64,000 bases of DNA from an uncultured delta proteobacterium (lineage in GTDB: Bacteria > Desulfobacterota > BSN033 > UBA1163). Shown here in pieces: positions 1,548 to 21,196 of this stretch (the first letter of the stretch is position 1; each line of letters begins with the position of its first letter). Location of the stretch: contig CAWEAV010000033.1 in the NCBI GenBank assembly GCA_963806715.1, forward strand, positions 9,501 through 73,500, in the 5' to 3' direction. Made by a program: the position numbers and the translations under genes. The notes below the pieces were generated by a model. The model saw only the letters and a list, made by a program, of their open reading frames with translations. It was not told the origin of the DNA and did not search any database.

Positions 1548-1627
1548 ATGCAGGTTTTCCCTTGATTTGTGGGCACTTTTCTCTTATAAAGCCTTTCAAA
1601 TAACCATTTCTCAAGGAGGAGGGAATT

Positions 1628-1933
1628 ATGGCAGCTCAGAAAAAGCTTTTAACAAAAGGACAAATCGTTACGCATTTCGCTGGGAAATTCGAGATTTCCA
1701 AAAAGGCCGCTGCTTCCATCGTTGAGGAGTACGCAGCCCTGGCAATCGCCGAAACCAAGAAAAAAGGGGCCTTCGTGCTCCCGGGAATTGGCAAATCTGT
1801 TCTCGTCAAAAGGAAAGCCCGGACAGGCCGGAACCCTGCCACAGGTGAAGCACTTAAGATCCCGGCTAAAACGGTCGTCAAGATAAGACCTGCCAAGGCA
1901 TTCAGAGAAACGATTGTGCCATCCAAAAAATAA
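1628..1933 (+). CDS. hup: HU family nucleoid-associated DNA-binding protein
   Basis: 101 aa; GKFEISKKAAASIVEEYAALAIAETKKKGAFVLPGIGKSVLVKRKARTGRNPATGEALKIPAK matches HU/IHF. AGGAGGA RBS lies 8 nt upstream. Confidence 0.9.
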   Translation: MAAQKKLLTKGQIVTHFAGKFEISKKAAASIVEEYAALAIAETKKKGAFVLPGIGKSVLVKRKARTGRNPATGEALKIPAKTVVKIRPAKAFRETIVPSKK

Positions 1934-1944
1934 CCTCCACGCGT

Positions 1945-1986
1945 CAAGAGGCGGGCTCAATAATTGGACCCGTCTCTTCTTTTTCT
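1945..1986 (+). terminator. Rho-independent terminator after hup
   Basis: GC stem CAAGAGGCGGG...CCCGTCTCTT followed by CTTTTTC, just downstream of the hup stop. Confidence 0.6.
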
Positions 1987-2336
1987 ACCTCAGGACAGGA
2001 GCCCGCTGAAACATTTCTCTTTGTTTTCACCGCCAAGAGGGAATCTTGCACGTATTTGAACATCCAAATTCTTATAAGAACCCCGAGAAACGGCTGCTCT
2101 CCCCGAGATCGTCCTTTAGCTGGAAAGTTACCTCATTTTACGGTCTTCAATGCTTTATTGCCCTGTTCAAGCTACCTAAGCGGTAACGCCGTTCCACTCC
2201 AACCGCCTTCCAACGGTTACCACTATACCTAAATATTACCCCAATTGAGCGAAAAATGAGTTCTTCAATCAAATATTTCCCTGATGATGAAACCATTAAA
2301 GAGCTTGCAGAGCGCTCTATCAAAATCCCCCTCAAT

Positions 2337-4758
2337 CCCCCTTTACGAAACTGAACGTGTCCCATATGTTAGGGGGCTGGACACAAGGGGAGTAATGTGC
2401 TATAGATAGGTCGTGCGGATATGCGGCCAGGAGTTTAGCGACGAAATTTGTGATCGAATCCGGGCCACCATTGAATCGGAACCGACGATCTCGCGTCGGG
2501 CATTGTCGTTGCGCGTCTGCGAGTGGCTCAACTGGAAGAGCCCCAATGGCAAGCCCAAGGAGATGAGCTGTCGGATGGCCTTGCTGAAGTTGCACCGTGG
2601 GGAGTATCTCTGTCTTCCGGAGCCAGGGGTCCGCAACTGGGCCGTGGTTCAGGGAGAACGGTGTACACTGTCGCTTCCAGAGATTGAGTCGCTTCGCTGC
2701 CGGTTGAAGACGTTGGGAGAGATCAAATTGGTCCTTGTTGAGAACAAGAAGCGCTCTCTCTCCCGTCTGTGGAATGACCTGATGGAGGCGTATCATTATC
2801 TGGGAGCTGGCCCCTTGTGTGGAGCGCAGGTTCGCTATTTGATTGAGAGTTCGGTCTATGGATGGATTGGAGGGTTGGCCTTCAGTGCTGCGGCTTGGCG
2901 AGTGGCCCCCCGGGATCGATGGATTGGGTGGAGCGAACAGGCCCGACAGTCGAATCTGGACAAGGTGGTCTGTAACAGTCGGTTTCTGCTCGTGCCTCGG
3001 GTGGCCCATTTGGCGTCCCACATCCTTTCGCTTTGCGCCCGACGAGTGGTTCAGGATTGGGTGCAGCGTTATGGTGTGCGGCCTATATTGATCGAGACCT
3101 ATGTCGAGCGGGACCGGTTTAAGGGGACCTGTTATCGTGCGGCCAATTGGTGTTATGTAGGAGCGACGCAGGGCCGAGGGCGGATGGACCGGGATCGCAG
3201 GTATTCGGCACCTGTTAAGGACATCTATTTGTACCCTCTTCAAAAGAACGCCCGCAAGGTGCTGTGTGTTGAACCGCCCGCGAAGCCGATCCGGTGCCGA
3301 TCGCAGCAGCCCGGGGCGGGCCGAGACTGGACCGAAGAGGAGTGGGCAGAGGCGCAGATCGGAGATCGCCGGTTGAACAAGAGGCTGCGCACCATTGCCC
3401 AAGCCTTTTACGCGCGGCCTCAGGCCAATATTCCCCAAGCCTGCCAGAGCCGGGCGGAGACAAAAGCCACGTATCGTTTTTTGGATCATCCTGAGACGAG
3501 CATAGAGACGATTCTCGATCCCCATTATCAAGCCACCGTGGCACGGATGAGTCGGGAAGAGGTGATCTTGGCTGTTCAAGACACCACGACGCTCAACTAC
3601 AGCGCCCATCCTGCGACGGAGAACCTCGGGCCGATTGGCTACAGTAAGGATCGAGGCATTGGACTGCTCCTGCATGATACGATGGCGTTTAATCGAGAAG
3701 GGACGCCACTGGGATTGCTCGATGTGCAATGCTGGGCGAGAGACGGGGCGGACTTTGGGAAGAAGAAGTGCCGGCATCGCTTGCCGATCGAGGAGAAGGA
3801 GAGTTTCAAATGGCTGGTCAGTTTTCGCAAGGTTGCCCAGGCACAGAAGCAATGTCCCGCAACGATGCTGGTCAGTGTGGGAGATCGAGAGGCGGATGTG
3901 TATCAGCTTTTTGAATTGGCCTTGAGTGATCCTTTGGGGCCAAAGCTTCTGATACGAGCTGAACAGGATCGGTTGCTTGCGCAAAGTCAAGGGCATCTGT
4001 GGGACAAGATGGCCGAGCAGGAGGTTTCGGGGATCCAGGAGATTCATGTTCCCCGTCACAAGAATCGTCGGGCTCGAGTGGCGCGGCTGGAGGTTCGGTT
4101 TGCAAAGGTTACCTTGAAGTCTCCCAAAAACGAGAAAAGGCGCCGCGAATTGACCCTGTGGGCCGTCTGGGCGCGGGAGGCTGTAGGGTCCACGGAAGCA
4201 GATCGCATTGAGTGGATGCTTCTGAGTACGGTGCCGATCCATACGTTTGCGGAGGCCATCGAGAAATTGGCCTGGTACACGCTCCGTTGGGGGATTGAGG
4301 TTTATCATCGCACCCTGAAGAGTGGATGCAAGGTGGAAGAGCGGCAACTGGGCACTGCTGATCGCATCGAAACGTGCTTGGCCATTGATATGGTGGTGGC
4401 ATGGCGAATTTTTCATTTGGCAAAGCTTGGCCGCGAGACCCCGGATGTGCCTTGTACGGTCTTCTTTGAAGAAGCGGAATGGAAAGCCCTGGTGGCTTAT
4501 ATCACTCAAAATCCGAAACCTCCTGAGACGCCTCCCACTCTTCGAGAGGCCATCGGGATGGTTGGCAGTCTCGGTGGGTTCCTTGGCCGAAACGGCGATG
4601 GCGAACCAGGGACCAAAAGCCTCTGGCTAGGAATCCAACGGCTCGACGATCTATCATCCATGTGGAAACTATTGACTGCAACTGCTCATCCTCCCCCCTC
4701 TCCTTCCCTTGTATCCAGCAACCCAGGTTATGGGTAAGGATCAGTTTACGAAAGGGGG
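2337..4758 (+). mobile_element. IS4-family (Tn5/IS50-like) insertion sequence, GC-rich relative to flanks
   Basis: Imperfect terminal inverted repeats CCCCCTTTACGAAACTGA (2337-2354) and TCAGTTTACGAAAGGGGG (4741-4758) bracket a single 774 aa transposase ORF. GC is about 58% against about 47% in the flanks. I found no clear 9 bp target duplication. Confidence 0.65.
2413..4737 (+). CDS. Tn5-like (IS4 family) DDE transposase with an extra N-terminal domain of about 290 aa
   Basis: C-terminal 480 aa carries Tn5-transposase hallmarks (LAWYTLRWGIEVYHRTLKSGCKVEERQ, IEWMLLST, DDE region). N-terminal 290 aa (MRICGQEFSDEICDRIRATIESEPTISRRALSLRVCEWLNW...) is an extra domain I recall as DUF4338-like. Confidence 0.8.
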   Translation: MRICGQEFSDEICDRIRATIESEPTISRRALSLRVCEWLNWKSPNGKPKEMSCRMALLKLHRGEYLCLPEPGVRNWAVVQGERCTLSLPEIESLRCRLKTLGEIKLVLVENKKRSLSRLWNDLMEAYHYLGAGPLCGAQVRYLIESSVYGWIGGLAFSAAAWRVAPRDRWIGWSEQARQSNLDKVVCNSRFLLVPRVAHLASHILSLCARRVVQDWVQRYGVRPILIETYVERDRFKGTCYRAANWCYVGATQGRGRMDRDRRYSAPVKDIYLYPLQKNARKVLCVEPPAKPIRCRSQQPGAGRDWTEEEWAEAQIGDRRLNKRLRTIAQAFYARPQANIPQACQSRAETKATYRFLDHPETSIETILDPHYQATVARMSREEVILAVQDTTTLNYSAHPATENLGPIGYSKDRGIGLLLHDTMAFNREGTPLGLLDVQCWARDGADFGKKKCRHRLPIEEKESFKWLVSFRKVAQAQKQCPATMLVSVGDREADVYQLFELALSDPLGPKLLIRAEQDRLLAQSQGHLWDKMAEQEVSGIQEIHVPRHKNRRARVARLEVRFAKVTLKSPKNEKRRRELTLWAVWAREAVGSTEADRIEWMLLSTVPIHTFAEAIEKLAWYTLRWGIEVYHRTLKSGCKVEERQLGTADRIETCLAIDMVVAWRIFHLAKLGRETPDVPCTVFFEEAEWKALVAYITQNPKPPETPPTLREAIGMVGSLGGFLGRNGDGEPGTKSLWLGIQRLDDLSSMWKLLTATAHPPPSPSLVSSNPGYG

Positions 4759-4877
4759 ATAACAATTAGTCCTCCCCTTTAGTAAAGGGGAGTCAGAGGG
4801 GATTTGTCGAGATTTGTTGACTCAATTGGGGTATTAGTAAATGTCCGCTTTCTGCAATCTCATAAACATTTCTCGCT

Positions 4878-5554
4878 ATGGGCTTCGATGGAACCTCTAC
4901 GGTCAACGCGTTTCTCAGCTTATCAAACGACGTCAAGTTTTCCAAACTTTTCATCCTTTCCTTCTTATTATCAACAGCAGTCCAATCTAATAATCCTTGG
5001 AAGATCCGTAGTCTAATCGAGGCCGCATATTGTGGTTCACCTAACTTGGCAATCATTTCGCAATTGAAAGAGCTTGCAGGAGAGGCGAAATCCTCACAAT
5101 GGAATGGAAGGATGTGGACCTTTTCAAGAGAACAGTAACTGTCCTCGGAGAGAAAACCGAGGAACGGAGAGTCGTACCGCTGACGCAAAAGGCCTTCGAG
5201 GTTCTGAAAGCGCGAGAGCGGGCAAGGTCAAACGTGAGGCCATTGAAAGGAGACTTTGTCTTCACCCATCCAGCCGGAAGGAAGGCCAATATCCACACGC
5301 TGAGGACTGTGTTTGAGGCTGCGGTTGAAAGGACAAAGATAGAGGGCTTCCGCTTCCACGACCTGCGCCACACCTTTGCCTCAAGGCTCGCCCAGTCCGG
5401 AACAGACCCTTACACAATCCAGAGACTCATGGGGCACAAGTCTTTCGTGACGACGCAGAGATATGCCCACCATTACTCCGAAAGCCTGAGAAAAGGAATA
5501 GCGGCGCTGGATGAATTCAGGCAACAGAAATCCAATTTTATCACAATCGGGTGA
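4878..5554 (+). pseudogene. Tyrosine recombinase/phage integrase, N-terminally truncated and frame-broken near 5090
   Basis: 5099-5554 encodes the catalytic C-terminus (HDLRHTFASRLAQ, LMGHKS, TQRYAH = R..HxxR..Y). The upstream frame (4878-5098) carries the core-region motif LIEAA...LAIISQL...GEAKSS and joins by a 1-nt shift. No arm-binding/SAM-like N-terminal domain is present. The IS end lies about 120 bp upstream. Confidence 0.55.
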
Positions 5555-5605
5555 AAACCGAGGGTAGGATGGATTTGGAGAGTAGACGTAAGTTATTGAA
5601 AAAAT

Positions 5606-5675
5606 TGGTGCCGGAGGTCGGAATCGAACCGACACGGGGTGGAAGCCCCGCGGGATTTTGAGTCCGAAAACCGGC
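5606..5675 (-). other. tRNA-Leu(CAA)-like 3' fragment (anticodon arm to CCA), no 5' half; possible att-site remnant
   Basis: Reverse complement reads ...TCGGA CTCAAAA TCCCG CGGGG-CTTCCA-CCCCG T GTCGG TTCGATT CCGAC CTCCGGC A CCA. It has a perfect T-arm, a class-II variable arm, an anticodon loop CUCAAAA (CAA) and a CCA end. The 5' acceptor partner GCCGGAG and the D-arm are absent from the upstream sequence. Confidence 0.5.
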
Positions 5676-6039
5676 TTTTTGCTAACCCCCTGATTCTTAA
5701 GGCGGTCTCCCTTAACCACTTTAAAATACTGGGGAAAAACCTTTCAGGTCCATTCCATTCTACTCTGTCTATTCCATTCTATTCGGGTCGCTTTTATCAC
5801 AATTTTATCACATTAGCATTTCATGATTTGAATTGCCTACCTCTCATCGAATTCCTTATGTGCCTCAGGGGCAATGATTGCGGACGGCCTTCAAATAGAT
5901 AGTATTTTTCGAAGCCCAAAAAATTATGATTTGATGATCAAAGCTTCATCAGGCCCACCCCATTAATGGGAGAGGGTTTTAGCAAGCTATATTCAGTCTT
6001 TAGATGCTGATACCACCTCCTACAAGTGACAAGATGAGA

Positions 6040-6231
6040 CTAATCTTTGTCAATTCTCCTGGGCCGGATCATCTCTTCAGGCGATAGAATCTTCTCGATT
6101 TCTTCTTTCGAAAGAAACTTCTGATCGAGAACAAGGTCATAGACAGACTTTCCTGTTTGGAGGGCTTCTTTTGCAAGCATCGTAGAATTCCTAACCGAGA
6201 TATTCTTCAAGTTTCTTTCCTTTTGCCCCAT
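6040..6231 (-). pseudogene. Aspartate ammonia-lyase/fumarase-family C-terminal remnant (about 60 aa only)
   Basis: LAKEALQTGKSVYDLVLDQKFLSKEEIEKILSPEEMIRP matches the aspartase/class II fumarase C-terminus (AKEALETGKSV.ELVLE.GLLTEEELD.ILSPE.M..P). There is no room for the other 400 aa before the korG stop at 6307. Confidence 0.5.
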
Positions 6232-6306
6232 AGAACGGCTCTCTTATCCTTCGAAACTGCCTGATGATTGCCCTTGAGTAGTTTCTTGAAGGATTTCGGT
6301 TTCCTT

Positions 6307-6852
6307 CTATTCCTTCTTCGCCCGCTTGGCCGCGCTGATCCCTGCCTTGAGGGCTTCGCGGTTCAACCTCTCGGTGCCTTTGGGCACCCGTCCCAGGACC
6401 GCCGTCTCCATCGATTTGGAAGAAACGATCGGGGTCAACTGGGTCAAGGCTCCCAGGGCCACGATGTTGGCCACCATCTCCCTCTTTAATTTTTCCCGGG
6501 CAATGCGCGTAAAGGGGATCCGAAAGACCTTCGACGTGGGGACCTGCTTAACAAAGGTCGAATCGACGATGAGCAATCCACCCGGTTTGAGATCCGAATA
6601 GAATTCGTCGCACGATTTCTGATTCATGGCTAAAAGGAGGTCCAGCTTCATGGCCTTGGGATAGTCGATCTCCTCCTCACTGACGATCACCTCTGCCTTG
6701 CTCGATCCTCCTCTGGCCTCAGGACCATAGCTCTGAGTTTGGGCCACGTACTTCCCCTCATAGATCCCGATGGCTTCTGCCAAGATAATCCCCATGAGGA
6801 TGAGTCCCTGTCCGCCTGAACCACTGAGTCGAATCTCATACCGATCACCCAT
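6307..6852 (-). CDS. korC: 2-oxoacid:ferredoxin oxidoreductase gamma subunit
   Basis: 181 aa; GSGGQGLILMGIILAEAIGIYEGKYVAQTQSYGPEARGG is the POR/KOR gamma signature. Last gene of the 4-gene operon. Confidence 0.85.
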   Translation of the reverse strand: MGDRYEIRLSGSGGQGLILMGIILAEAIGIYEGKYVAQTQSYGPEARGGSSKAEVIVSEEEIDYPKAMKLDLLLAMNQKSCDEFYSDLKPGGLLIVDSTFVKQVPTSKVFRIPFTRIAREKLKREMVANIVALGALTQLTPIVSSKSMETAVLGRVPKGTERLNREALKAGISAAKRAKKE

Positions 6853-6854
6853 CG

Positions 6855-7691
6855 CTATTTCCCTGCACCTCCCTTTGCCCGTTCTCGAATCTTTTCGTAT
6901 TCAATTTGAAATACGGGAAGTTCTTTATCGACCAAGACCCCGATAAGAAGCTGATCCTTCGTCTCCTCGGGCTTCATCGTCACCGCCTTCTCCACGGTCA
7001 ACGCATGATCCCGCTGCCACTCCATCATCTCCACTGCCCCTCCGAGATGGTTCTGCCTTCCATACTGAGTATGGCAATGGGCAATGACTTCGACTACGGA
7101 AAACCCCTGTTTTAGAAAGGCCTTTTCCATCAGGCTGTCCAGGAGCTTCGCATGATAGACCGTCCCTCTTCCGACAAAGACGGCTCCGGCCGTCACCGCC
7201 AACTCCGAAATCCTAAAGGCCTGCTCAATATTCGAATAGATCGTTGTGGTGGACCGCATCCCGTAAGGCGTTGTCGGTGAGTACTGGCCTCCGGTCATCC
7301 CATAGATGCTGTTATTGAGGATGATCGCCGTGACATCAATGTTCCTTCGGGCCGCGTGGATGAAGTGGTTGCCTCCTATGGCAACGGCATCTCCATCCCC
7401 CATGATGACGATCACCTTGAGATTGGGTTTGGCCAGTTTCACCCCTGTGGCAAAAGTCAGTGCCCGTCCGTGGGTCGTATGGAGGGTATTGAAATCGACA
7501 TAAACCGGGAGCCTTCCCGAACACCCAATCCCCGAGACAAGGACGACGTCATCCTTTGCGTAGCCGATTCGATCGATCGCCCGGATGAGAGCGCCCAACA
7601 TGATCCCGATCCCGCATCCGGGACACCAGACATGGGGAAACTTCTTGTCGTGGCGAAGGTATTTATGAATCAGCTTGGTAATTTCAGGCAT
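6855..7691 (-). CDS. korB: 2-oxoacid:ferredoxin oxidoreductase beta subunit (TPP-binding)
   Basis: 278 aa; CPGCGIG...GIGCSGR...IMGDGDAVAIGGNHFIHAARRNIDVTAII TPP motif. Confidence 0.9.
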   Translation of the reverse strand: MPEITKLIHKYLRHDKKFPHVWCPGCGIGIMLGALIRAIDRIGYAKDDVVLVSGIGCSGRLPVYVDFNTLHTTHGRALTFATGVKLAKPNLKVIVIMGDGDAVAIGGNHFIHAARRNIDVTAIILNNSIYGMTGGQYSPTTPYGMRSTTTIYSNIEQAFRISELAVTAGAVFVGRGTVYHAKLLDSLMEKAFLKQGFSVVEVIAHCHTQYGRQNHLGGAVEMMEWQRDHALTVEKAVTMKPEETKDQLLIGVLVDKELPVFQIEYEKIRERAKGGAGK

Positions 7692-8893
7692 CAGGATACC
7701 TCCAGGATCCGATTCAAAATTTCCTCGGGGGTAATGATCGTTCCATCCACCTTATTAAGAGTAAACACCTTGGCCGTGTCCCGGTTCACCCGCTTCACCT
7801 CCCGGGAAACTTGCCCCATGTTCATTTCCGGAACGATCAATGTTTTGGAGGTCTGTAAGATCTTTTCCACGGCCGACCTCATAAAGGGCCAGAGGGTGAT
7901 TAGCTTAAGCAAGCCCACCTTCTTTCCCTTCTCCCTTGCTTCAATCACGGCCCTCTTGGCAGAACGGGCCACACATCCGTAGGCCACAAGGGTGATCTCC
8001 GCATCGTCGGTCAGGAAGAATTCAGCCATCTGGATCTCTGAGAAATTCTGATTGATCTTCCGGAAGAGCCGATTGATGAAAGGACCAATCTCATCGGGTC
8101 TTGAGGTGGGGAATCCTCGAATATCGTGGGTTAATCCTGTCACATGGTATCGATAGCCCTCTCCAAAATTGGCCATGGCTGGAACAGCGCTCGCTGTATC
8201 CTCGTAGGGGATATACCATTCCGGAGGGACCGTGGGTTTAACCCGGTTGATGATCGTCACCTCTTCTTCATCCGACAGGGTCATCTTTTCCCGCATATGA
8301 GCCACAACCTCATCGATCAGGACAATGACCGGGTTCCGGAACTTTTCCGAGAGGTTGAAGGCCTTGATCGTAATTTCATAACATTCCCGGACCGTCGAGG
8401 CAGACAGGACGATGGCCGGATGGTCCCCATGGGTCCCCCACCGCGCCTGCATCACATCGCTCTGGGAGGGATAGGTCGGAAGCCCGGTACTTGGCCCGCC
8501 CCTCATCACATTGACGATGACACAGGGAATTTCAGCGATCACGGCAAAACCAAGATTTTCCTGCATCAGCGAAAAACCCGGACCGCTCGTTGCCGTCATC
8601 GCTTTCACCCCAGCCTGAGAAGCACCAATCACCGCACCCACGCTGGCAATCTCATCTTCCATCTGGATGAAGGTTCCATCTACCTGCGGCAGTTTTACGG
8701 ATAAAATCTCGGAAATCTCTGTGGCGGGAGTAATAGGATATCCTGCAAAAAAACGACAACCTGCCCGAAGCGCCCCTTCAACAATCGCTTCATTGCCCTG
8801 GAGCAACACCTCTCTCTTCTGACTCCGCTTCTTCACCTTTCCCCTCTTTCTTCTTACTCCTTCTGTTCCACGGTGATGGCAAAATCGGGGCAC
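7691..8893 (-). CDS. korA: 2-oxoacid:ferredoxin oxidoreductase alpha subunit
   Basis: 400 aa; LLQGNEAIVEGALRAGCRFFAGYPITPATEI...ATSGPGFSLMQENLGFA. The true start may be an internal GTG, since the annotated N-terminus overlaps the delta subunit. Confidence 0.9.
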   Translation of the reverse strand: MPRFCHHRGTEGVRRKRGKVKKRSQKREVLLQGNEAIVEGALRAGCRFFAGYPITPATEISEILSVKLPQVDGTFIQMEDEIASVGAVIGASQAGVKAMTATSGPGFSLMQENLGFAVIAEIPCVIVNVMRGGPSTGLPTYPSQSDVMQARWGTHGDHPAIVLSASTVRECYEITIKAFNLSEKFRNPVIVLIDEVVAHMREKMTLSDEEEVTIINRVKPTVPPEWYIPYEDTASAVPAMANFGEGYRYHVTGLTHDIRGFPTSRPDEIGPFINRLFRKINQNFSEIQMAEFFLTDDAEITLVAYGCVARSAKRAVIEAREKGKKVGLLKLITLWPFMRSAVEKILQTSKTLIVPEMNMGQVSREVKRVNRDTAKVFTLNKVDGTIITPEEILNRILEVS

Positions 8894-14627: not shown

Positions 14628-16091
14628 GTGTATAAAAAATTTTATGGTTTCTCAGAGAAGCCTTTTGAAGTCACACCGGATCCAAAGTTTCTTTATTTCA
14701 CTTCCAGCCACCGGGATGCACTGGCTGCTGTGTTTGACGCCATAACAAATCGAAAAAGATTCATCTCCCTCATAATAGGAGAAGCAGGAACTGGCAAAAC
14801 GACCCTGATTCATTTTTTACTTGGTAGGCTTGACCCGAAAGTGAAGACAGCTTTTATCTGTCACCCTCCAATCACTTTTAGAGATCTACTGAGAAATATA
14901 TTTCTGGAATTAGGCTTTAACGTTGTGGAGGAAAACAATAAGGTTCTTTTGATTCAACTGAATGAATATTTGGAGGAACTTGCCGTAGGTCAGACTCTGG
15001 CGGTGATCATTGATGAAGCCCAGAATCTTCCAGAAGAAGTTATAGCGGAACTGGGACGGCTTGAGGAGAGGATTGCCCTAACATCAAGTAGACTTCAGAT
15101 CATCTTCGTGGGACAACCTGAGTTTGAAGCCAAACTCAATTCTCCAATTTTGAGGGAACTCAACCAGAGGATAGAGATAAAGTGTCAAATCAGAGCCTTC
15201 ACTGAGGAAGAGTCAAGAGCCTATATTAATCATCGACTCAAATTGGTTGGAAGCAGTAGTTCTGAGGCACTCACCCCAAATGCTCTTTCAACGATTCTCA
15301 TCCATGCCAAAGGAATCCCACGAGCAATCAACATTCTTTGTGACAGGGCCTTTCTGATTGGCTACGGTTTATCCAGAAAACGGATCGACGCAGAGATTAT
15401 TGGGAAAGCAATTAACGAGATGGAAAGTCCAATCCTGCCGAAATCAATCCCTACGAAGATCGTTCCGGCGCTCAAGGGCACTCACTGGAAGTTCCTCAGA
15501 CTCAATTTTCCTCAAAGGAGGATTTCCTTTGCCATTCTATCTATACTCTGCCTGGGAGCATCCCTTCTTCTGATCTATGGATTCCTGCAGCAAAAACCCA
15601 CAAAGACCGGAAGTATTGAATCCATAACAAATCGCCGTATAGGTACATTAGAGGAGGTGATAGCCGTTGAGAATGGGCAAACCATTTCTTCTCTGTCGCA
15701 GAAATATTACCGCATGACGAATCCAACCCTTCTTGCCTTCATCCTAGATTTCAATCCTGAGATTACCAATGCCGACCTCATTCAGGTGAACCAGAAAATT
15801 AAGATACCCAGGATCACAAAAGATTGGCTGGTGTTTCAATCTCCTGATCGTGTCTACAAAATTCATGTTGGAACTTTTTCGACTCTTGACTTTGTCAAAC
15901 CTTACAAGAATGAACCCCTATTAAAAGGAAAGAAAATAGAAGTCCTTCCCCGGAAAGTATCCCCTCAGGACACATGGTATCGAGTCGTAGTTGGAAATTT
16001 TGATCATAAGGATGAGGCTTTGAAAATGATAGATCTTCTTAAAGAAAAAAGGCTGTTACCCCTTTTCGGAGATATTCCTAAGATCGAGTGA
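14628..16091 (+). CDS. ExeA/GspA-like AAA ATPase (AAA_22) with TM segment, LysM-like and C-terminal SPOR domains
   Basis: 487 aa; IIGEAGTGKTTL, IIDEAQNL, a TM helix (ISFAILSILCLGASLLLIYGF), a LysM-like segment (GTLEEVIAVENGQTISSLSQKYY) and a SPOR-like end (YKIHVGTFST...WYRVVVGNFDHKDEA). Confidence 0.7.
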   Translation: MYKKFYGFSEKPFEVTPDPKFLYFTSSHRDALAAVFDAITNRKRFISLIIGEAGTGKTTLIHFLLGRLDPKVKTAFICHPPITFRDLLRNIFLELGFNVVEENNKVLLIQLNEYLEELAVGQTLAVIIDEAQNLPEEVIAELGRLEERIALTSSRLQIIFVGQPEFEAKLNSPILRELNQRIEIKCQIRAFTEEESRAYINHRLKLVGSSSSEALTPNALSTILIHAKGIPRAINILCDRAFLIGYGLSRKRIDAEIIGKAINEMESPILPKSIPTKIVPALKGTHWKFLRLNFPQRRISFAILSILCLGASLLLIYGFLQQKPTKTGSIESITNRRIGTLEEVIAVENGQTISSLSQKYYRMTNPTLLAFILDFNPEITNADLIQVNQKIKIPRITKDWLVFQSPDRVYKIHVGTFSTLDFVKPYKNEPLLKGKKIEVLPRKVSPQDTWYRVVVGNFDHKDEALKMIDLLKEKRLLPLFGDIPKIE

Positions 16092-16365
16092 GACGACCTA
16101 ACCACGAAATCAGGGCCATCAACATTTTTGAACAAGTTATGTCACAAATTCCCCGCAATTTGTCCCATCCCCAAAGGTAGTTTCTTTAAGCCAATTGAGA
16201 TCTTCTTAAAGAAAAAAGGCTGTTACCCCTTTTCGGAGATATTCCTAAGATCGAGTGAGATGATGAAATCGGGACCATCACATAGTTGGACAAAGTTATG
16301 TCACAATTCCCTCGCAATCTGTCCCATCCCCAAACGTAGTTTCTTTAACCCAATTGATTGGCTGT
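16032..16365 (+). repeat. Tandem direct duplication (2 x about 167 bp) spanning the last 58 nt of the ExeA-like gene plus downstream sequence
   Basis: Unit 1 is 16032-16198 and unit 2 is 16199-16365. The first 62 nt are identical (GATCTTCTTAAAGAAAAAAGGCTGTTACCCCTTTTCGGAGATATTCCTAAGATCGAGTGAGA); the remainder is about 80% identical. Confidence 0.8.
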
Positions 16366-17049: not shown

Positions 17050-17720
17050 CTAATTCGAACCCAGTGCTTTCATGGCAGCGGTCATGGGGTCGCCGTAGAA
17101 AACTGGGTCAACTTTTTCCACGATATCCGCTGACACCTCAAGGAAGTTTCGTTTGTTTTCCAGCGGGATGAGGGCACGGCGAGCGCCATTTTCCATCGCC
17201 ATCTGCAAGGGTTCAATCAATGTATGGACAGATTTTATGTTGCCCTGAATGCTTAAGTCTCCCAAAATTACCAATCCAGGAGCGACAGGAGCCTTGCGAA
17301 GGGCCGAGCCATCGCAACAACGAAGGCGATTCCAGCTTCGCACGTGATTCGGTTTGCCAGTAAATCGATTACCTCCACATGCAAGTCAGTTGTATCCAGA
17401 ACGCTCGCTATGCCCATCTGGACCTTATGACCCTGGAGAAAGCCAAAAGCACGGTTGAGGCATTCCCTAATCGAGGAATCGATTCCTCCGGCCATTTTCA
17501 GTTTGCCTGTGCCAGATGATGTGCCAACCTCGATACGGTAAATTCCGACCTTTCCCTCGGAGCTCACTCGATGCAGCATAATCTGACCCTGGAGCGCACG
17601 TAGGGCCAACCTTCGGATGAACGCTGAGTAGGCTTTCTGCGGGTCATACCAAACCACCAGGCCGTGATCGTCGATTTGCCTGGAAATCAAAGCCGCGAGA
17701 TAGTCTGAGACCTTACCCAT
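17050..17720 (-). CDS. Standalone Lon-protease-like S16 peptidase domain protein (frame broken near 17268-17343, probably a sequencing indel)
   Basis: The two overlapping ORFs together match the Lon C-terminal proteolytic domain (GKVGIYRIEVGTSSGTGKLKMAG; ITCEAGIAFVVAMA aligns to PKDGPSAGIAM; LVILGDLSIQGNIKSVHTLIEP aligns to [22 protein letters not shown]). The catalytic Ser position appears to be Glu (CEAG); the Lys is retained. No ATPase domain. Confidence 0.55.
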
Positions 17721-17886: not shown

Positions 17887-18660
17887 TCAGACCATATCCA
17901 GGAAGAATTTCGTTGAATACGCGATGAACATACCGTAGCCAAAACTCATCAATGTACCGATAATGATGTACTCAGCTTCCATCCGGTTCTGTTGATCTTT
18001 AATCTCCCCGAATCGAAGAATCGATTTCGCTGCAATCAAGAAACCAATGCCGCCCGGTTGTCCTGTCAGAATGAACAGGAAGATCAAGCTCCTCTCAAGG
18101 TATCCGATGAGCTTTCCTCCATTTTCGAATCCCCGGGCTGTGGTTACTCCCTCTTTTGTCGTTTGTTCCCCAATCTTCTGTAACTCGTCTATAAAAGGCT
18201 TTACAGCCAAACCAATGAGGATGCCTCCTGCTTTGATAGCAACCGTCAGACCAGATATCAGAATGAGAAATTCCAGGAAACCCCTCCCGAGCAGGTCCAC
18301 CCAGAATGTTGATGAACTATTTAGTGGAATAATCTTCGTGTTGACAATCAAAATGGTGATAGCGCTTATGACGGCGAGATGCACCGCCTGGTCCAGGATA
18401 AATGAATAGACACTCTCTTTCTTTAACGTGACCTTAATGTAATCCGTCAGACCATGTGTAAGAAATATGACGAGGGGAACTTGCCAGAGGCTCCAGATTC
18501 CGCAAAGTACGTAACCTGAAGCAACGACGATGAAGGCATGTTTCAAAAGTATACGAGCCCTTCTCTTCCTTGATGCATCTGCATCGGACTGAAAGATGAA
18601 GTCACCCAGGAAATGGGCCGCCAAAAGACAAATCAGAATTTCTTTCGCAGCTTCACTCAT
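17887..18660 (-). CDS. DUF3307-like (SatE-like) polytopic membrane protein with HxxxDxxxQ motif
   Basis: 257 aa, about 7 predicted TM helices, N-terminal AHFLGDFIFQSD motif. Family assignment is from memory of DUF3307/SatE. Sits immediately 3' of the SatD-like gene. Confidence 0.5.
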   Translation of the reverse strand: MSEAAKEILICLLAAHFLGDFIFQSDADASRKRRARILLKHAFIVVASGYVLCGIWSLWQVPLVIFLTHGLTDYIKVTLKKESVYSFILDQAVHLAVISAITILIVNTKIIPLNSSSTFWVDLLGRGFLEFLILISGLTVAIKAGGILIGLAVKPFIDELQKIGEQTTKEGVTTARGFENGGKLIGYLERSLIFLFILTGQPGGIGFLIAAKSILRFGEIKDQQNRMEAEYIIIGTLMSFGYGMFIAYSTKFFLDMV

Positions 18661-18841
18661 TTGGTGCGCCTGACCTCCAGCCCGTCACAGCTTGTTGAAG
18701 CTGTAATGGGCGTTTACAGCCTGCTGGGGCTGTGTGTTTAGGATGGCACCCCATCCTCCTTCATCGAGGGAAGAGGAGCGTGGTCTCTTACGGGTCCCGG
18801 AGACCCGATCGCCATAAAAACAGCCCTCAGAGGCTGTAAAT

Positions 18842-19510
18842 CTATATTACAGCCCTTTTAAGCTGTTTTTCAAAAAATCCGATCGCCTTTTCTACCGGAA
18901 ACCAGCCGGCTCGCTGGAGATGCCTGTTGACAGACTGTTGGGTAATCGCAGGTTTCCACAGGCTCCCGATTTCCTCCTGCTTCAAGCCCTGCAATGCGCC
19001 GGTTATGGCAAGAGCTTGTTTATCACTCCAGTTCATTGCCAATACGTCCAGAAGGTGAACCAGAACATCGAGAGATTCTTCAATCTCCCGCTCAGGAAAT
19101 CTAAAGCACATATTGCTTGCCTTTGTCATTTCCTCCAGGGCTTTACCTGAATACCGATACGCCTGCCCATCCCCGCCGGAAACACGATCATCCGGAACAA
19201 AATCAACTGTCCCGATTGCGATCGCCATACGGGTATCTATCTTGCTTGCCGCCGCTGCTGCTCGCAAAAACGCCCTGTAAAACAACCCGATTCTCAACGA
19301 CACCGCGGGATCAGCCACCAACAACTGCCAGGAGTCTCCTCTGAAAACATCCACATCCAGCGGAATGCTCTCTTTAAAAACCTTACGAAGAACCTTTGAC
19401 CCATCTTTCATGTTACGGTGAAGCCTTTGCCGCTCCTCGACTGATAATTTCGAAGAATCCACAATATCTCCCGTAACGACCGCGTAAGGCTTTCCTTTCT
19501 CAATCTTCAT
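18842..19510 (-). CDS. SatD-like protein with nucleotide-cyclase (Palm) type metal-binding motifs
   Basis: 222 aa; YAVVTGDIVDSSKL resembles the class III cyclase beta1 motif FADIVGFT, and VFRGDSWQLLVADP resembles KTIGDAYMAVFGAP. Start codon overlaps the upstream gene stop (ATGA). Confidence 0.5.
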   Translation of the reverse strand: MKIEKGKPYAVVTGDIVDSSKLSVEERQRLHRNMKDGSKVLRKVFKESIPLDVDVFRGDSWQLLVADPAVSLRIGLFYRAFLRAAAAASKIDTRMAIAIGTVDFVPDDRVSGGDGQAYRYSGKALEEMTKASNMCFRFPEREIEESLDVLVHLLDVLAMNWSDKQALAITGALQGLKQEEIGSLWKPAITQQSVNRHLQRAGWFPVEKAIGFFEKQLKRAVI

Positions 19511-20031
19511 TTTATCCTTCTCCGTCCCTTCTTCGGAGTTAATGCCTTTTCCTCGAATAGATTCTCAAGGCCGTGGGCGATGGCAAAGGATTTGTTGGTC
19601 TTGCATTTCTCCTTCACCCTTTCAGGCCAATATTCCATGGCCTGTTGAGCCCAGTCATATTTCTCTTCCTCAAGCTCCTTCCCAGGCCATTCTTGTTTCC
19701 GGCAGGTATATTCCTCGAACGTGTTCTGCGGAAATTCTAACCGGTAAATGCCTCCAGCTGCCTCGAACCTTAGCCAGCCATGCTGGTGGGACTCCATGAA
19801 AAGACGCTCAACATTTGTCTCTCTGAGCAAGAATAACTTCCAATCGGGGTGTCGAATCATGTCTCGGCCAATCACTCCCAGGTCGTTAAGACAAAACCCA
19901 ATTAGGGCAAAGGCTTCAAGAGCAAGATGAAAGGGGGTAATATGTTTCCGGACGCCCCTTCGAGAATCCCAAAATCCCGCAGCCCAGCAAGGAGACCTCG
20001 GGCCACCTTTCGTTGTACGGTAGGAGTCCAT
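19507..20031 (-). CDS. Hypothetical protein (start likely internal; annotated N-terminus overlaps the upstream gene)
   Basis: 174 aa ORF overlapping the 190 aa ORF by about 130 nt. The real start is possibly MIRHPDW or MESHQHG. No recognised domain. Confidence 0.35.
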   Translation of the reverse strand: MDSYRTTKGGPRSPCWAAGFWDSRRGVRKHITPFHLALEAFALIGFCLNDLGVIGRDMIRHPDWKLFLLRETNVERLFMESHQHGWLRFEAAGGIYRLEFPQNTFEEYTCRKQEWPGKELEEEKYDWAQQAMEYWPERVKEKCKTNKSFAIAHGLENLFEEKALTPKKGRRRIK

Positions 20032-20474
20032 TCCTTCTTAACTCCATGAAGCTTTCTGGATAACCAACTTATGACTTCTCCAACACGAATTTCCCGGTCG
20101 GGATGCCCGGCTCGGTGGAAAACCTCCTCTGTAACAAAAGCATATAGCAAGGGCTCTGCCCTCGCCGTGATCCAGTAATAGAAAGCGCGAATAATTTCGA
20201 TATCAGCAGTTGAAACCTCCAGAGTCCGGGCTAACTTCCAGGCATTGGGTGGGGATCCATGAATGAATCGAGGGCGGAATGCACGGGTATAGGTATCTCT
20301 TACACGGGCGAGGGTCATTTTGGAAAGAACCGCAAGTGCAGATTTGGGGGAATTGGCCTTGGTCAGCTCCTCAGACCAATTTGAAACGAGCAGCCGCATG
20401 TCCCCAAGGAGCGCCCCACCTTTTGCGAGTCGGCTGGTGAATTCTACTGCTCCTTGTGCATTTTGTCTATCCAT
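19902..20474 (-). CDS. Hypothetical protein, about 190 aa
   Basis: Helical; no family confidently recognised (vague resemblance to small BREX-associated BrxA-like proteins, not supportable from sequence alone). Confidence 0.4.
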   Translation of the reverse strand: MDRQNAQGAVEFTSRLAKGGALLGDMRLLVSNWSEELTKANSPKSALAVLSKMTLARVRDTYTRAFRPRFIHGSPPNAWKLARTLEVSTADIEIIRAFYYWITARAEPLLYAFVTEEVFHRAGHPDREIRVGEVISWLSRKLHGVKKEWTPTVQRKVARGLLAGLRDFGILEGASGNILPPFILLLKPLP

Positions 20475-20512: not shown

Positions 20513-21196
20513 CTATTTTCTACCAGAAAGCAGTTGACATGAACCCATAAAATTATTTCTAAACACTTCCTTTACTTCATCAGTCTCTTCCCTTCCCCTT
20601 CCCGCATACCTCACGTTCGGATGAAGGTGCCTATTCAATTCCCGCACAAAATCAATAATCGGATGTCCATATCGCCTGCCCTGAGTACTTTCGGCTTCAA
20701 GCCTGATAACTTCACAAATGATTTCGAGGGTGGTGTTTAATCTGATCTCACTTTTAATATATTTCGGAATCGAGGGAACCACTTGTCGGTATGTTTCCTT
20801 TACAACCTCCGGCTTAACAGAATCATGGATGTAGTAATTACTCACAAGCTGAATTACCAATTTCCCCACCATTTTCCTGAAGTTCTTGAATACGACTCTA
20901 CCAGAACAAATCTGTTTGATGTTTTTGAGGAAGGATAGATATCCAGCCTCATCATACTCAAAGATATCTCCGTACTTGTCCCGGGTGTACTGAGTGTAGG
21001 CGTATACATCGGTTTTTGGCCCCCTCACTTTGGACTCACAAACCACAAGCGTTCTCTGCTCGGGATGGTAGGCCAATACATCAATATCGCTCCATCCATG
21101 CCCTTCCCCCTGGAAAGGAAATCTCTGTTGCGTCCAGTAACCCTGGAGCCTCCAATAGGCCTCGACGATACTTTCAACGGCCATCTGCTCAGACAT
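20513..21196 (-). CDS. PD-(D/E)xK restriction-endonuclease-fold (Hjc/Mrr-like) nuclease domain protein
   Basis: N-terminus ESIVEAYWRLQGYW...GWSDIDVLAYHPEQRTLVVCESKV shows E...D-hydrophobic...E-x-K spacing typical of the Holliday-junction-resolvase/restriction-endonuclease fold. C-terminal 140 aa unknown. First gene of the cluster. Confidence 0.5.
   Translation of the reverse strand: MSEQMAVESIVEAYWRLQGYWTQQRFPFQGEGHGWSDIDVLAYHPEQRTLVVCESKVRGPKTDVYAYTQYTRDKYGDIFEYDEAGYLSFLKNIKQICSGRVVFKNFRKMVGKLVIQLVSNYYIHDSVKPEVVKETYRQVVPSIPKYIKSEIRLNTTLEIICEVIRLEAESTQGRRYGHPIIDFVRELNRHLHPNVRYAGRGREETDEVKEVFRNNFMGSCQLLSGRK

What the first reader, a model, noticed from the sequence alone, without database searches (positions are those of the whole stretch)
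18842..19510. SatD-like protein carries both metal-binding Asp motifs of nucleotidyl cyclase / Palm domains
YAVVTGDIVDSSKL matches the class III cyclase beta1 motif (FADIVGFT). VFRGDSWQLLVADP matches the second metal-binding segment (KTIGDAYMAVFGAP). This argues the protein is a divergent nucleotide cyclase/GGDEF-like (mCpol-like) enzyme that could synthesise a nucleotide second messenger. The adjacent DUF3307 membrane protein (HxxxDxxxQ motif) would then be a candidate receptor or effector.
Basis: partly seen in the sequence, partly recalled or inferred. Interest (0 to 1): 0.7.

Follow-up and report, generated by a model that had tools for sequence, protein, structure and literature searches.

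The report
Cyclase-fold DNA-binding regulator with membrane partner
This small uncharacterised protein (SatD family) really does have the fold and metal-binding residues of a nucleotide cyclase, but it also carries a DNA-binding domain and its own paired palindromic DNA sites, so it is most likely a nucleotide-dependent gene regulator of the neighbouring membrane-protein gene rather than a free-standing signalling enzyme.

Summary

First, the C-terminal third is a sigma-70-region-4/LuxR-like helix-turn-helix. Second, four 18-bp palindromes (ACAGC-N8-GCTGT), arranged as two pairs 29 bp apart, lie between this gene and the DUF3307 gene and nowhere else in the 64 kb.

In 80 related loci such palindrome pairs sit almost only just upstream of satD or just upstream of DUF3307. 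Their inner bases co-vary with residue 196 of the predicted recognition helix. SatD is therefore most likely a dimeric (auto)regulator of the DUF3307 membrane protein, with a catalytically intact-looking palm domain as input.

Enzyme activity, any product, and a receptor role for DUF3307 remain untested. The gene pair is conserved across bacteria and archaea. In this clade it sits inside BREX loci, and the BREX locus here is decayed.

The parts
18842..19510 (-). satD-like gene, 222 aa: an N-terminal cyclase-type palm domain plus a C-terminal helix-turn-helix
   Evidence: ORF. Pfam SatD E 1.4e-5. 2959 family representatives at E<=1e-3. AF2 model pLDDT 94.3.
19091..19510 (-). Palm (cyclase-homology-like) domain, residues ~1-140
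19445..19486 (-). Motif 1, YAVVTGDIVDSSKL (residues 9-22). D15 codon at 19466-19468; S19 is in the phosphate-loop position.
   Evidence: G14 128/130, D15 128/130, S19 122/130. G14, D15 and S19 are invariant in relatives of 20-31% identity.
19307..19348 (-). Motif 2, VFRGDSWQLLVADP (residues 55-68), the beta2-beta3 hairpin. D59 codon at 19334-19336.
   Evidence: G58 129/130, D59 129/130, Q62 130/130. Invariant in remote relatives.
19229..19231 (-). R94 codon (beta4, 'TRMAIAIG'). It aligns with the Arg of the cyclase R-[IV]-G motif.
   Evidence: R94 125/130 and invariant in remote relatives. The alignment to Rv1625c comes from a non-significant hhalign, so the equivalence is inferred.
18896..19033 (-). 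Helix-turn-helix domain (residues ~160-205). Predicted recognition helix is residues 189-200 (18911-18946); specificity residue R196 is at 18923-18925.
   Evidence: Sigma70_r4_2 in 6/130 representatives (best E 5.5e-5), plus HTH_33, HTH_3 and GerE. Helices at 163-173, 178-182 and 191-200. Column 196 has the highest mutual information with operator class.
18849..18866 (.). Palindrome O1, ACAGCTTAAAAGGGCTGT (coding orientation). It lies within the last codons of satD, in the spacer of a promoter-like site.
   Evidence: 4 sites in 64 kb, 0 expected. Promoter-like TTGAAA-18-TAATAT at 18873..18844.
18820..18837 (.). Palindrome O2, ACAGCCTCTGAGGGCTGT, 29 bp after O1 and followed by a T-run
   Evidence: The scan also scores it as terminator-like.
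18716..18733 (.). Palindrome O3, ACAGCCCCAGCAGGCTGT
18687..18704 (.). Palindrome O4, ACAGCTTCAACAAGCTGT, 29 bp after O3 and 26 nt before the DUF3307 start codon
   Evidence: L003 has the same four-site layout.
17887..18660 (-). DUF3307 polytopic membrane protein, 257 aa, the conserved partner and probable regulated target
   Evidence: PF11750 E 2.6e-17. All-helical AF2 model, pLDDT 87. Universal residues H16, D20, Q24, Q91, H94, E189, R190, K212, R216, E230, Y231.
19507..20474 (-). BREX remnant upstream: brxA split by a frameshift (19902-20474 and 19507-20031), with its 3' part fused to the last ~60 codons of pglX
   Evidence: Pfam BrxA. PADLOC BrxA and PglX residues 1246-1303 of 1332. NCBIfam PglX.
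17050..17720 (-). BREX remnant downstream: the first ~49 codons of pglZ fused to brxL residues ~501-595 (17268-17720), then brxL residues 596-679 in another frame (17050-17343)
   Evidence: PADLOC PglZ and BrxL. Pfam Lon_C. L004 has intact PglZ and BrxL in the same position.

Best explanation
The protein is a one-component transcription regulator of the SatD family. Its N-terminal two-thirds is a nucleotidyl-cyclase-type palm domain. This domain keeps the two metal-binding Asp residues, the Ser of the phosphate loop and the beta4 Arg, so it very probably binds Mg-NTP and may turn it over. Its C-terminal third is a sigma-70-region-4/LuxR-like helix-turn-helix.

As a dimer it binds 18-bp palindromes, here ACAGC-N8-GCTGT. 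Cyclase-type palm domains dimerise, and the sites are palindromic. The palindromes come in pairs 29 bp apart and overlap promoter-like elements in front of the DUF3307 gene. In most relatives a second set lies in front of satD itself. SatD thereby controls, most likely represses, the DUF3307 membrane protein, and the nucleotide state of the palm domain sets DNA binding.

Shown computationally: the fold, the residue conservation, the gene pairing, the location of the sites, and the protein-DNA covariation. Inferred: dimerisation, repression rather than activation, nucleotide binding or catalysis, and how these couple to DNA binding. Unknown: the ligand or product, and what DUF3307 does. Its invariant His/Asp/Gln residues in transmembrane helices suggest a membrane-embedded metal site.

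For: Active-site conservation: D15 128/130, D59 129/130, Q62 130/130, R94 125/130, S19 122/130. The only residues invariant across relatives of 20-31% identity are M1, G14, D15, S19, G58, D59, Q62 and R94; apart from the initiator Met these all lie in the palm centre. Full-length homology of those relatives is confirmed.

HTH: Sigma70_r4_2, HTH_33 and GerE hits.

Sites in the window: 4 palindromes, all at 18687-18866, 0 expected. With one mismatch allowed, only one further site appears in the 64 kb.

Sites in 80 loci (976 kb): 68 perfect ACAxy-N8-y'x'TGT sites lie within -60..+300 of the satD end. Of the other 51, 48 lie 668-775 nt upstream of the satD end, that is just before the satD start. 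The junction density is 44 times that of the rest. There are 56 pairs at exactly 29 bp in 44 loci.

Covariation: residue 196 is K with ACAAC in 8/8 loci, Q with ACAAG in 33/37, R with ACAGC in 6/7, and D/E with ACAGG in 8/8. Column 196 is the top of 222 columns by mutual information, and 0 of 10,000 permutations reach the observed value. On a tree built from the palm domain alone, each character changes at least 11 times.

Same layout with other half-sites: TCAACC in Sphingomonas and GTTCG in the archaeon Haloplanus, the latter with 4 sites at 29-bp spacing.

Promoter overlap: O1 lies in the spacer of a promoter-like site, and the upstream consensus is tTACAAGC...CTTGTAaTt.aTtaATACAAG.

Gene pairing. 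In one subclade DUF3307 is replaced by an MFS transporter gene, which fits a 'regulator plus adjacent membrane-protein gene' logic.
Against: No experiment exists. The HTH assignment rests on weak Pfam hits in a minority of members, and a C-terminal profile finds nothing significant in the PDB. Sequence-profile comparison with class III cyclases is not significant (hhalign E 0.13). Apart from the two Asp residues, the canonical substrate-specifying Lys/Asp and transition-state Asn/Arg are not recognisably conserved (position 119 is R in only 66/130), so cyclase chemistry is uncertain. As RNA, the intergenic region also folds far better than shuffled controls (z -5.2), and O2 plus its T-run looks like a terminator. 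Covariation is confounded by phylogeny, and there are exceptions (L046, L064, L072, L079, L036). In this window there is no palindrome upstream of satD itself. Repression versus activation rests on one consensus promoter match that is no better than the shuffle expectation.
Confidence: 0.6

Rival explanations
1. SatD is primarily a signalling nucleotide cyclase or oligonucleotide synthase, and its diffusible product is sensed by the DUF3307 membrane protein acting as receptor or effector. This would be a Pycsar-, CBASS- or Panoptes-like two-gene module, possibly anti-phage. It could coexist with the DNA-binding role.
For: Palm fold and intact Asp pair. Obligate pairing with a membrane protein. 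The window and its three closest genome relatives sit in type 1 BREX loci, next to intact PglZ-BrxL and a PDC-M28 candidate system in L004. A Sphingomonas plasmid copy lies beside a TIR protein and a Pycsar system. The pair is the only non-backbone cargo annotated on a 3.8-kb ColE1-type plasmid. Precedent: mCpol plus a transmembrane effector (PMC12657230).
Against: Neither protein hits PADLOC. Neighbours in most of the 58 loci sampled are housekeeping genes such as response regulators, PolX, TsaD, SecDF, TatC and thiolases. There are no phage copies. DUF3307 has no recognisable nucleotide-sensor domain, and its model gives no specific fold match. A subclade swaps DUF3307 for an MFS transporter. 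This model does not explain the HTH and the co-varying operators.
Confidence: 0.2
2. The palm domain is a catalytically dead ligand-sensing module, as in degenerate GGDEF-like domains of HTH regulators or the cyclase-like ATP-binding regulator 6yii. SatD would then be an ordinary small-molecule-responsive repressor.
Against: Among the residues that are universally invariant are the two metal-binding Asp residues and their Gly neighbours, the loop Ser and the beta4 Arg. From general knowledge, pseudo-cyclases usually lose these. At the least, Mg-NTP binding is implied.
Confidence: 0.15
3. The palindromes act as RNA hairpins (terminator, attenuator or mRNA-stability elements) rather than as protein-binding DNA sites, and the C-terminal domain is not a DNA-binding domain.
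For: The region folds strongly as RNA (z -5.2). O2 is followed by TTTTT and is scored as terminator-like. Both arms change together across loci.
Against: The same sites also lie upstream of the satD start, in promoter position. Many are palindromic through an AT-rich centre, leaving no loop (for example ACAAGCTATATAGCTTGT). The spacing is fixed at 29 bp. Imperfect sites show no strand-consistent G-U pattern. The variable bases co-vary with one residue of the predicted recognition helix. There is no Rfam match.
Confidence: 0.05

Closest known systems
Class III nucleotidyl cyclase catalytic domain (Pfam Guanylate_cyc PF00211; e.g. Rv1625c, Ma1120, Cya2, mammalian AC C1/C2)
   Different: There is no significant sequence similarity (no Pfam hit; hhalign E 0.13). 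There is no conserved purine-specifying Lys/Asp or Glu/Cys pair and no conserved transition-state Asn/Arg. The domain is fused to an HTH in a 220-aa protein. Activity is unknown.
Transcription regulators that combine a cyclase or GGDEF-like palm domain with an HTH: the PucR/CdaR type (Pfam GGDEF_2 plus a C-terminal HTH) and cyclase-LuxR regulators such as the P. aeruginosa cyclase-like ATP-binding regulator 6yii and M. tuberculosis Rv0386 (the architectures are from my own knowledge; 6yii is seen)
   Same: A palm domain used as the input or enzymatic module of a DNA-binding protein, with a C-terminal HTH of the sigma-r4/LuxR kind.
   Different: SatD is much smaller, with two domains only and no STAND/ATPase or PucR N-terminal domain. 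It is a separate sequence family. It keeps both metal-binding Asp residues almost universally. It is tied to one specific partner gene (DUF3307) and to paired palindromes at 29-bp spacing.
Panoptes (mCpol plus 2TM-beta or CARF-TM effector) and Pycsar
   Same: A minimal palm-domain nucleotide synthase encoded next to a membrane protein. In Panoptes the cyclase is constitutive and holds a toxic membrane effector in check (PMC12657230; PMC12657218; PMC13577387). The SatD pair sometimes lies in defence loci.
   Different: There is no GGDD motif. There is an HTH with operators. DUF3307 is a ~7-8-helix protein without a known nucleotide-binding domain. There are no PADLOC hits. Most genomic contexts are not defence islands. 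No product is known.
SatD of the Streptococcus mutans sat operon (origin of the Pfam name; from my own knowledge, function never established)
   Same: The same Pfam family at the superfamily level.
   Different: The window protein scores below the Pfam gathering threshold and belongs to a divergent, mostly Gram-negative and environmental branch. I could not retrieve the S. mutans locus to compare partners or operators.

Membership tests
Class III nucleotidyl cyclase (PF00211) | beta-alpha-alpha-beta-beta-alpha-beta palm fold of the cyclase homology domain | tested here: met
Class III nucleotidyl cyclase (PF00211) | Two metal-binding Asp residues, at the end of beta1 and in the beta2-beta3 hairpin | tested here: met
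   D15 128/130 and D59 129/130; invariant at 20-31% identity. Their positions on beta1 and in the hairpin follow from the model's secondary structure. The hhalign alignment pairs them with D256 and D300 of Rv1625c, but it is not significant.
Class III nucleotidyl cyclase (PF00211) | Significant sequence or profile similarity to the family | tested here: not met
   No PF00211 hit for the window protein or any of the 130 representatives at E<=1. hhalign against an Rv1625c-family alignment gives E 0.13. A profile search of the PDB finds no cyclase.
Class III nucleotidyl cyclase (PF00211) | Substrate-specifying pair (Lys/Asp or Glu/Cys) and transition-state Asn/Arg | tested here: inconclusive
   In the non-significant alignment the equivalents are V55, R119 and K123. 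R119 is conserved in only 66/130. A structural superposition with residue mapping was not available.
Class III nucleotidyl cyclase (PF00211) | Cyclase activity (NTP to cNMP plus PPi) | not testable with these tools
   Needs biochemistry.
GGDEF diguanylate cyclase (PF00990) | GG[DE]EF signature in the beta2-beta3 hairpin | tested here: not met
mCpol / Cas10 palm | GGDD signature and Cas10-type palm; partner with a CARF or 2TM-beta effector | tested here: not met
SatD family (PF16264) | Match to the Pfam model above its gathering score | tested here: inconclusive
   The window protein scores 25.3 bits against a cut-off of 29. 52/130 relatives match (best E 7.8e-12). The family profile matches an NCBI 'SatD family protein' over its full length (98% probability, E 2.9e-13). 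This is a divergent branch of the family.
SatD family (PF16264) | Adjacent DUF3307 gene (a feature observed here, not a published definition) | tested here: met
   69/80 genome loci. Also the Sphingomonas, Salinivibrio, E. coli pEC34A, Segatella and Haloplanus plasmids.
Helix-turn-helix transcription regulator (sigma-70 region 4 / LuxR-like) | HTH domain recognisable by profile | tested here: inconclusive
   Sigma70_r4_2 in 6/130 (best E 5.5e-5), HTH_33 in 5, HTH_3 in 3, GerE in 2. Three short helices at 163-200. A C-terminal profile against the PDB is not significant.
Helix-turn-helix transcription regulator (sigma-70 region 4 / LuxR-like) | Cognate palindromic DNA sites near its own or the target gene, co-varying with the recognition helix | tested here: met
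Known anti-phage defence system (PADLOC) | Match to a defence-system protein model | tested here: not met
   No PADLOC family matches SatD or DUF3307 at E<=0.1.

The most novel reading that the evidence does not exclude
SatD-DUF3307 is a self-contained two-gene nucleotide-signalling module with toxin-antitoxin or guard-like logic. SatD would both make a nucleotide signal with its palm domain and repress the gene for a potentially toxic membrane effector (DUF3307). Loss of SatD activity or of its signal, for example during phage attack or plasmid loss, would unleash the membrane protein. This would explain three observations: the pair sits in the accessory slot of BREX loci, it lies beside Pycsar and TIR genes, and it is the only cargo annotated on a small ColE1-type plasmid. 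It would be a new kind of defence or addiction system, with an enzyme-repressor fusion at its centre.
Probability: 0.15. Interest if true: 0.85.

Novelty: new variant of a known kind. Interest (0 to 1): 0.6.

Why it matters
SatD (PF16264) and DUF3307 (PF11750) are widespread families. The SatD profile finds 2959 cluster representatives, in bacteria and archaea. I found no functional description of either in the searchable literature.

This analysis turns them into a testable system with four defined parts: a palm-domain protein with an intact catalytic centre, a defined DNA operator, a single predicted specificity residue, and a defined target gene.

If the palm domain is active, SatD would be a compact enzyme-repressor in which nucleotide chemistry is coupled directly to transcription. 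If DUF3307 also responds to the product, the pair would be a new minimal signalling or defence module. The residue-196/operator code is directly testable by mutation and makes the family attractive as a set of orthogonal regulators.

Tried and rejected
1. Sequence-only links to solved structures. A whole-protein profile against the PDB gave only a YlxM-like protein at E 0.19. A C-terminal profile gave nothing significant.

2. hhalign against an Rv1625c-family alignment. It was collinear and paired the expected residues, but it was not significant (E 0.13; template Neff 2.0), so I do not use it as proof. I seeded that alignment with the Rv1625c catalytic domain from memory. The sequence proved 100% identical to PDB 4p2x over residues 66-237.

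3. Looking for class III cyclases or GGDEF proteins in the window and loci for local comparison. I found only one GGDEF protein.

4. Defence-island hypothesis for the whole family. PADLOC and Pfam censuses of 135 neighbours showed mostly housekeeping genes. It holds only for the window's own clade and a few plasmids.

5. Phage origin. No match for either protein in 50,697 phage records.

6. Known RNA element between the genes. No Rfam match at E<=1.

8. Operators in the MFS-linked subclade. None found.

9. Spread of the pEC34A pair in complete E. coli genomes. No match.

10. Literature. There is nothing on SatD/DUF3307 function, and a 2026 BREX survey does not mention them.

Full report
**What is at the coordinates**

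The ORF 18842..19510 lies on the minus strand and encodes 222 aa. The D15 codon (19466-19468) and the D59 codon (19334-19336) are visible in the sequence. Pfam gives SatD at E 1.4e-5, below the gathering score. The next gene on the same strand, 17887..18660, is DUF3307 (E 2.6e-17) and carries H16-x3-D20-x3-Q24.

**Is the cyclase resemblance real?**

Yes, at the level of fold and catalytic centre.
- An AlphaFold2 model built on 34 homologues has mean pLDDT 94.3. Its order of elements is beta1(8-16), helix, beta2(54-56), beta3(60-65), helix, beta4(93-104), helix, beta5. D15 lies at the end of beta1, and G58-D59 lie in the beta2-beta3 turn.
- Foldseek ranks class III cyclases first, with Cya2 and Ma1120 at E about 1e-4.
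- The family is large. A profile search finds 2959 representatives of 50%-identity clusters, almost all about 220 aa and matched end to end.
- In 130 of these representatives, D15 is kept in 128, D59 in 129, Q62 in 130, R94 in 125, S19 in 122, G115 and A117 in 128 each, and S121 in 129.
- I also examined relatives of only 20-31% identity: a protein on the E. coli plasmid pEC34A, one on a Segatella plasmid, an archaeal Haloplanus protein that NCBI calls 'SatD family protein', and proteins from Sphingomonas and Salinivibrio. Their homology is confirmed by profile comparison (E 6.5e-17 and 2.9e-13). The only invariant residues are M1, G14, D15, S19, G58, D59, Q62 and R94.

Apart from the initiator Met, the strongest constraint in the whole protein is therefore on the palm centre.

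**Limits of that resemblance**

Sequence-profile comparison with class III cyclases is not significant.
- There is no PF00211 hit in any member.
- hhalign against an Rv1625c-family alignment gives E 0.13.
- That alignment is collinear. It pairs D15 with D256, G58-D59 with G-D300, R94 with the beta4 Arg, and G115-x-A117 with the GDAVN helix. I treat the pairings beyond the two Asp residues as inference.
- The purine-specifying and transition-state residues of class III enzymes have no conserved counterpart; position 119 is Arg in only 66/130.
- The hairpin reads RGDS, which is neither GGDEF nor the GGDD of Cas10/mCpol.

The protein is a member of the cyclase-type palm superfold. It is not a demonstrable member of any of its enzyme families, and its chemistry is open. 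The hit to GTP cyclohydrolase III shows that the fold also supports hydrolysis.

Residues ~160-205 form three short helices. Among the 130 representatives, 6 hit Sigma70_r4_2 (best E 5.5e-5). Others hit HTH_33, HTH_3, GerE and HTH_23. Remote members show a textbook 'xxEIAxxLGxSxxTVxxxL' helix-turn-helix.

Between the two genes I noticed ACAGC-N8-GCTGT. It occurs four times in the 64-kb window, all within 18687-18866, where shuffled sequence gives none. Allowing one mismatch adds a single site elsewhere. The four sites form two pairs, each 29 bp start to start. O1 (18849-18866) lies in the last codons of satD, and O2 (18820-18837) lies just after the stop. O3 (18716-18733) and O4 (18687-18704) end 26 nt before the DUF3307 start.

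**The sites are a family feature**

In 80 genome loci from many phyla I searched for perfect ACAxy-N8-y'x'TGT palindromes.
- 68 lie within -60..+300 of the satD end.
- 51 lie elsewhere in the other 947 kb, and 48 of those lie 668-775 nt upstream of the satD end, that is directly in front of satD.
- 56 pairs have exactly 29-bp spacing, in 44 loci: 24 in front of satD and 32 in front of DUF3307.
- Many sites are palindromic straight through an AT-rich centre, for example ACAAGCTATATAGCTTGT. This leaves no loop for an RNA hairpin.
- The upstream consensus (tTACAAGC...CTTGTAaTt.aTtaATACAAG) puts the left arm on a TTtACA -35-like hexamer.
- In the window, O1 sits in the spacer of a promoter-like TTGAAA-18-TAATAT. 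That scan finds no more promoter-like sites than shuffles do, so repression rather than activation is a weak inference.
- Remote relatives keep the layout with other half-sites. Sphingomonas has two TCAACC...GGTTGA sites between the genes. Haloplanus has four GTTCG...CGAAC sites upstream, in two pairs at 29 bp.

**Protein-DNA covariation**

The inner dinucleotide of the half-site defines classes, and these track residue 196 in the predicted recognition helix:

| Half-site | Residue 196 | Loci |
|---|---|---|
| ACAAG | Q | 33 of 37 |
| ACAAC | K | 8 of 8 |
| ACAGC | R | 6 of 7 |
| ACAGG | D or E | 8 of 8 |

- Of all 222 alignment columns, 196 has the highest mutual information with operator class (1.36 of 1.72 bits). 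None of 10,000 label permutations reaches that value.
- On a neighbour-joining tree built from the palm domain only, both characters change at least 11 times by parsimony and they change together. K/ACAAC and R/ACAGC each arise in several phyla.
- There are five exceptions, and the permutation test ignores phylogeny.
- Even so, this is the pattern expected if the HTH reads these bases. It argues against the RNA-hairpin reading, which the strong RNA fold (z -5.2) and the terminator-like O2 would otherwise allow. No Rfam family matches.

**The partner**

A DUF3307 homologue lies directly downstream on the same strand in 69 of 80 loci, with a median gap of 117 nt. No other neighbour family recurs in more than 11 loci. 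The pairing also holds on plasmids of Sphingomonas, Salinivibrio, E. coli, Segatella and the archaeon Haloplanus.

The DUF3307 model (pLDDT 87) is an all-helical, polytopic membrane protein. The residues invariant across remote relatives fall into two groups:
- H16, D20, Q24, Q91 and H94 in the N-terminal helices.
- E189, R190, K212, R216, E230 and Y231 in a very conserved C-terminal part.

In one Desulfobacterota subclade (8 loci) DUF3307 is absent, and an MFS transporter gene sits immediately upstream of satD. I found no palindrome pairs there.

**Genomic setting**

In the window the pair is flanked by wreckage of a type 1 BREX locus.
- Upstream: a frameshifted brxA whose 3' part is fused to the last ~60 codons of pglX.
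- Downstream: the first ~49 codons of pglZ fused to the last third of brxL.

The three closest genome relatives are also in BREX loci.
- L004 reads PDC-M28B, PDC-M28C, SatD, DUF3307, intact PglZ, intact BrxL.
- L002 reads BrxA, BrxB, SatD, DUF3307.
- L003 keeps a trace of the pglX 3' end.

Accessory genes embedded in BREX loci are a known phenomenon, but a 2026 survey does not mention SatD, DUF3307 or a cyclase (PMC12839542). A Sphingomonas plasmid copy sits beside TIR and Pycsar genes. The pair is the only non-backbone cargo annotated on the 3.8-kb plasmid pEC34A.

Against a general defence role:
- Neither protein hits PADLOC.
- There are no phage copies.
- The neighbours of 58 other loci are mainly housekeeping genes.

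**Most likely mechanism**

SatD is a dimeric one-component regulator. Its HTH binds paired palindromes over the promoters of DUF3307 and, in most lineages, of satD itself. In the BREX-embedded clade the sites are only in front of DUF3307. The palm domain, whose Mg-NTP-binding residues are the most conserved part of the protein, supplies the input. It may do so as an NTP sensor, or as an enzyme whose substrate or product sets DNA binding.

The fold, conservation, pairing, site distribution and covariation are computed results. Dimerisation, repression, nucleotide binding and catalysis are inferences.

**Novelty**

Palm-domain-plus-HTH regulators exist. From my own knowledge these include the PucR/CdaR type with a GGDEF-like domain and cyclase-LuxR regulators. 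6yii appears. I therefore file this as a new variant of a known kind.

What appears new, within the literature I could search, is four things: the assignment of the SatD family to this class with an intact catalytic centre, its operator, its specificity residue, and its obligate DUF3307 partner. Curated structure classifications that I could not query may already list the fold relationship.

Noticed in passing
window 17050-17720 and 19507-20474: A decayed type 1 BREX locus. brxA is frameshifted. Its 3' part is fused to the last ~60 codons of pglX. The first ~49 codons of pglZ are fused to the last third of brxL, which is itself frameshifted. brxB, brxC and most of pglX, pglZ and brxL are missing. 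The satD-DUF3307 pair between the remnants is intact.
   Followed up: partly
L004 327-9592: In a Desulfatibacillum MAG the pair sits between the candidate defence genes PDC-M28B/PDC-M28C and intact pglZ-brxL. The accessory slot of a live BREX locus therefore holds two inserted modules.
   Followed up: partly
L084 (E. coli plasmid pEC34A, NC_019077.1) 1792-3481; also 3770-bp Klebsiella plasmids: A SatD homologue (27% identity, hhalign E 6.5e-17) and a 333-aa DUF3307 protein are the only annotated genes on a 3.8-kb ColE1-type mobilisable plasmid besides Rop, MobA and a 51-aa ORF. The plasmid sequence is absent from complete E. coli RefSeq genomes.
   Followed up: partly
L086 (Haloplanus plasmid) 2185-2310: An archaeal SatD-DUF3307 pair has four 20-bp palindromes (GTTCG-N10-CGAAC) upstream, arranged as two pairs 29 bp apart. 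The operator geometry is conserved across domains, although archaeal promoters differ.
   Followed up: partly
L050, L052, L065, L066, L069, L070, L073, L077: A SatD subclade has no DUF3307. Instead an MFS transporter gene lies immediately upstream on the same strand, in a housekeeping neighbourhood (LytB-UbiA, PlsY, TauE). Its recognition helix has Pro or Tyr where the others have Q192, and I found no palindrome pairs.
   Followed up: partly
window 18737-18819: Between palindrome pairs O1-O2 and O3-O4 lie two further GC-rich inverted repeats (GGGTCTCCGGGACCC and GGATGGGGTGCCATCC, coding orientation). They contribute to the strong predicted RNA fold (z -5.2). Their role is unknown.
   Followed up: no
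window 16050-16357: A tandem duplication of about 160 bp (a 47-nt unit at 98% identity and a 93-nt unit at 83%). It starts at the 3' end of the gene for an ExeA-like AAA ATPase with LysM and SPOR domains (14628-16091).
   Followed up: partly
window 20513-21196: A 227-aa ORF next to brxA has no Pfam family and only a faint PADLOC type II restriction-enzyme match (E 0.014). It may be another island gene.
   Followed up: no
L082 (Sphingomonas insulae plasmid) 956-8446: A remote SatD-DUF3307 pair lies in an apparent defence island with a TIR-domain protein, an HTH/ImmA pair and a Pycsar system (cyclase, E2-associated protein and Pycsar effector).
   Followed up: no
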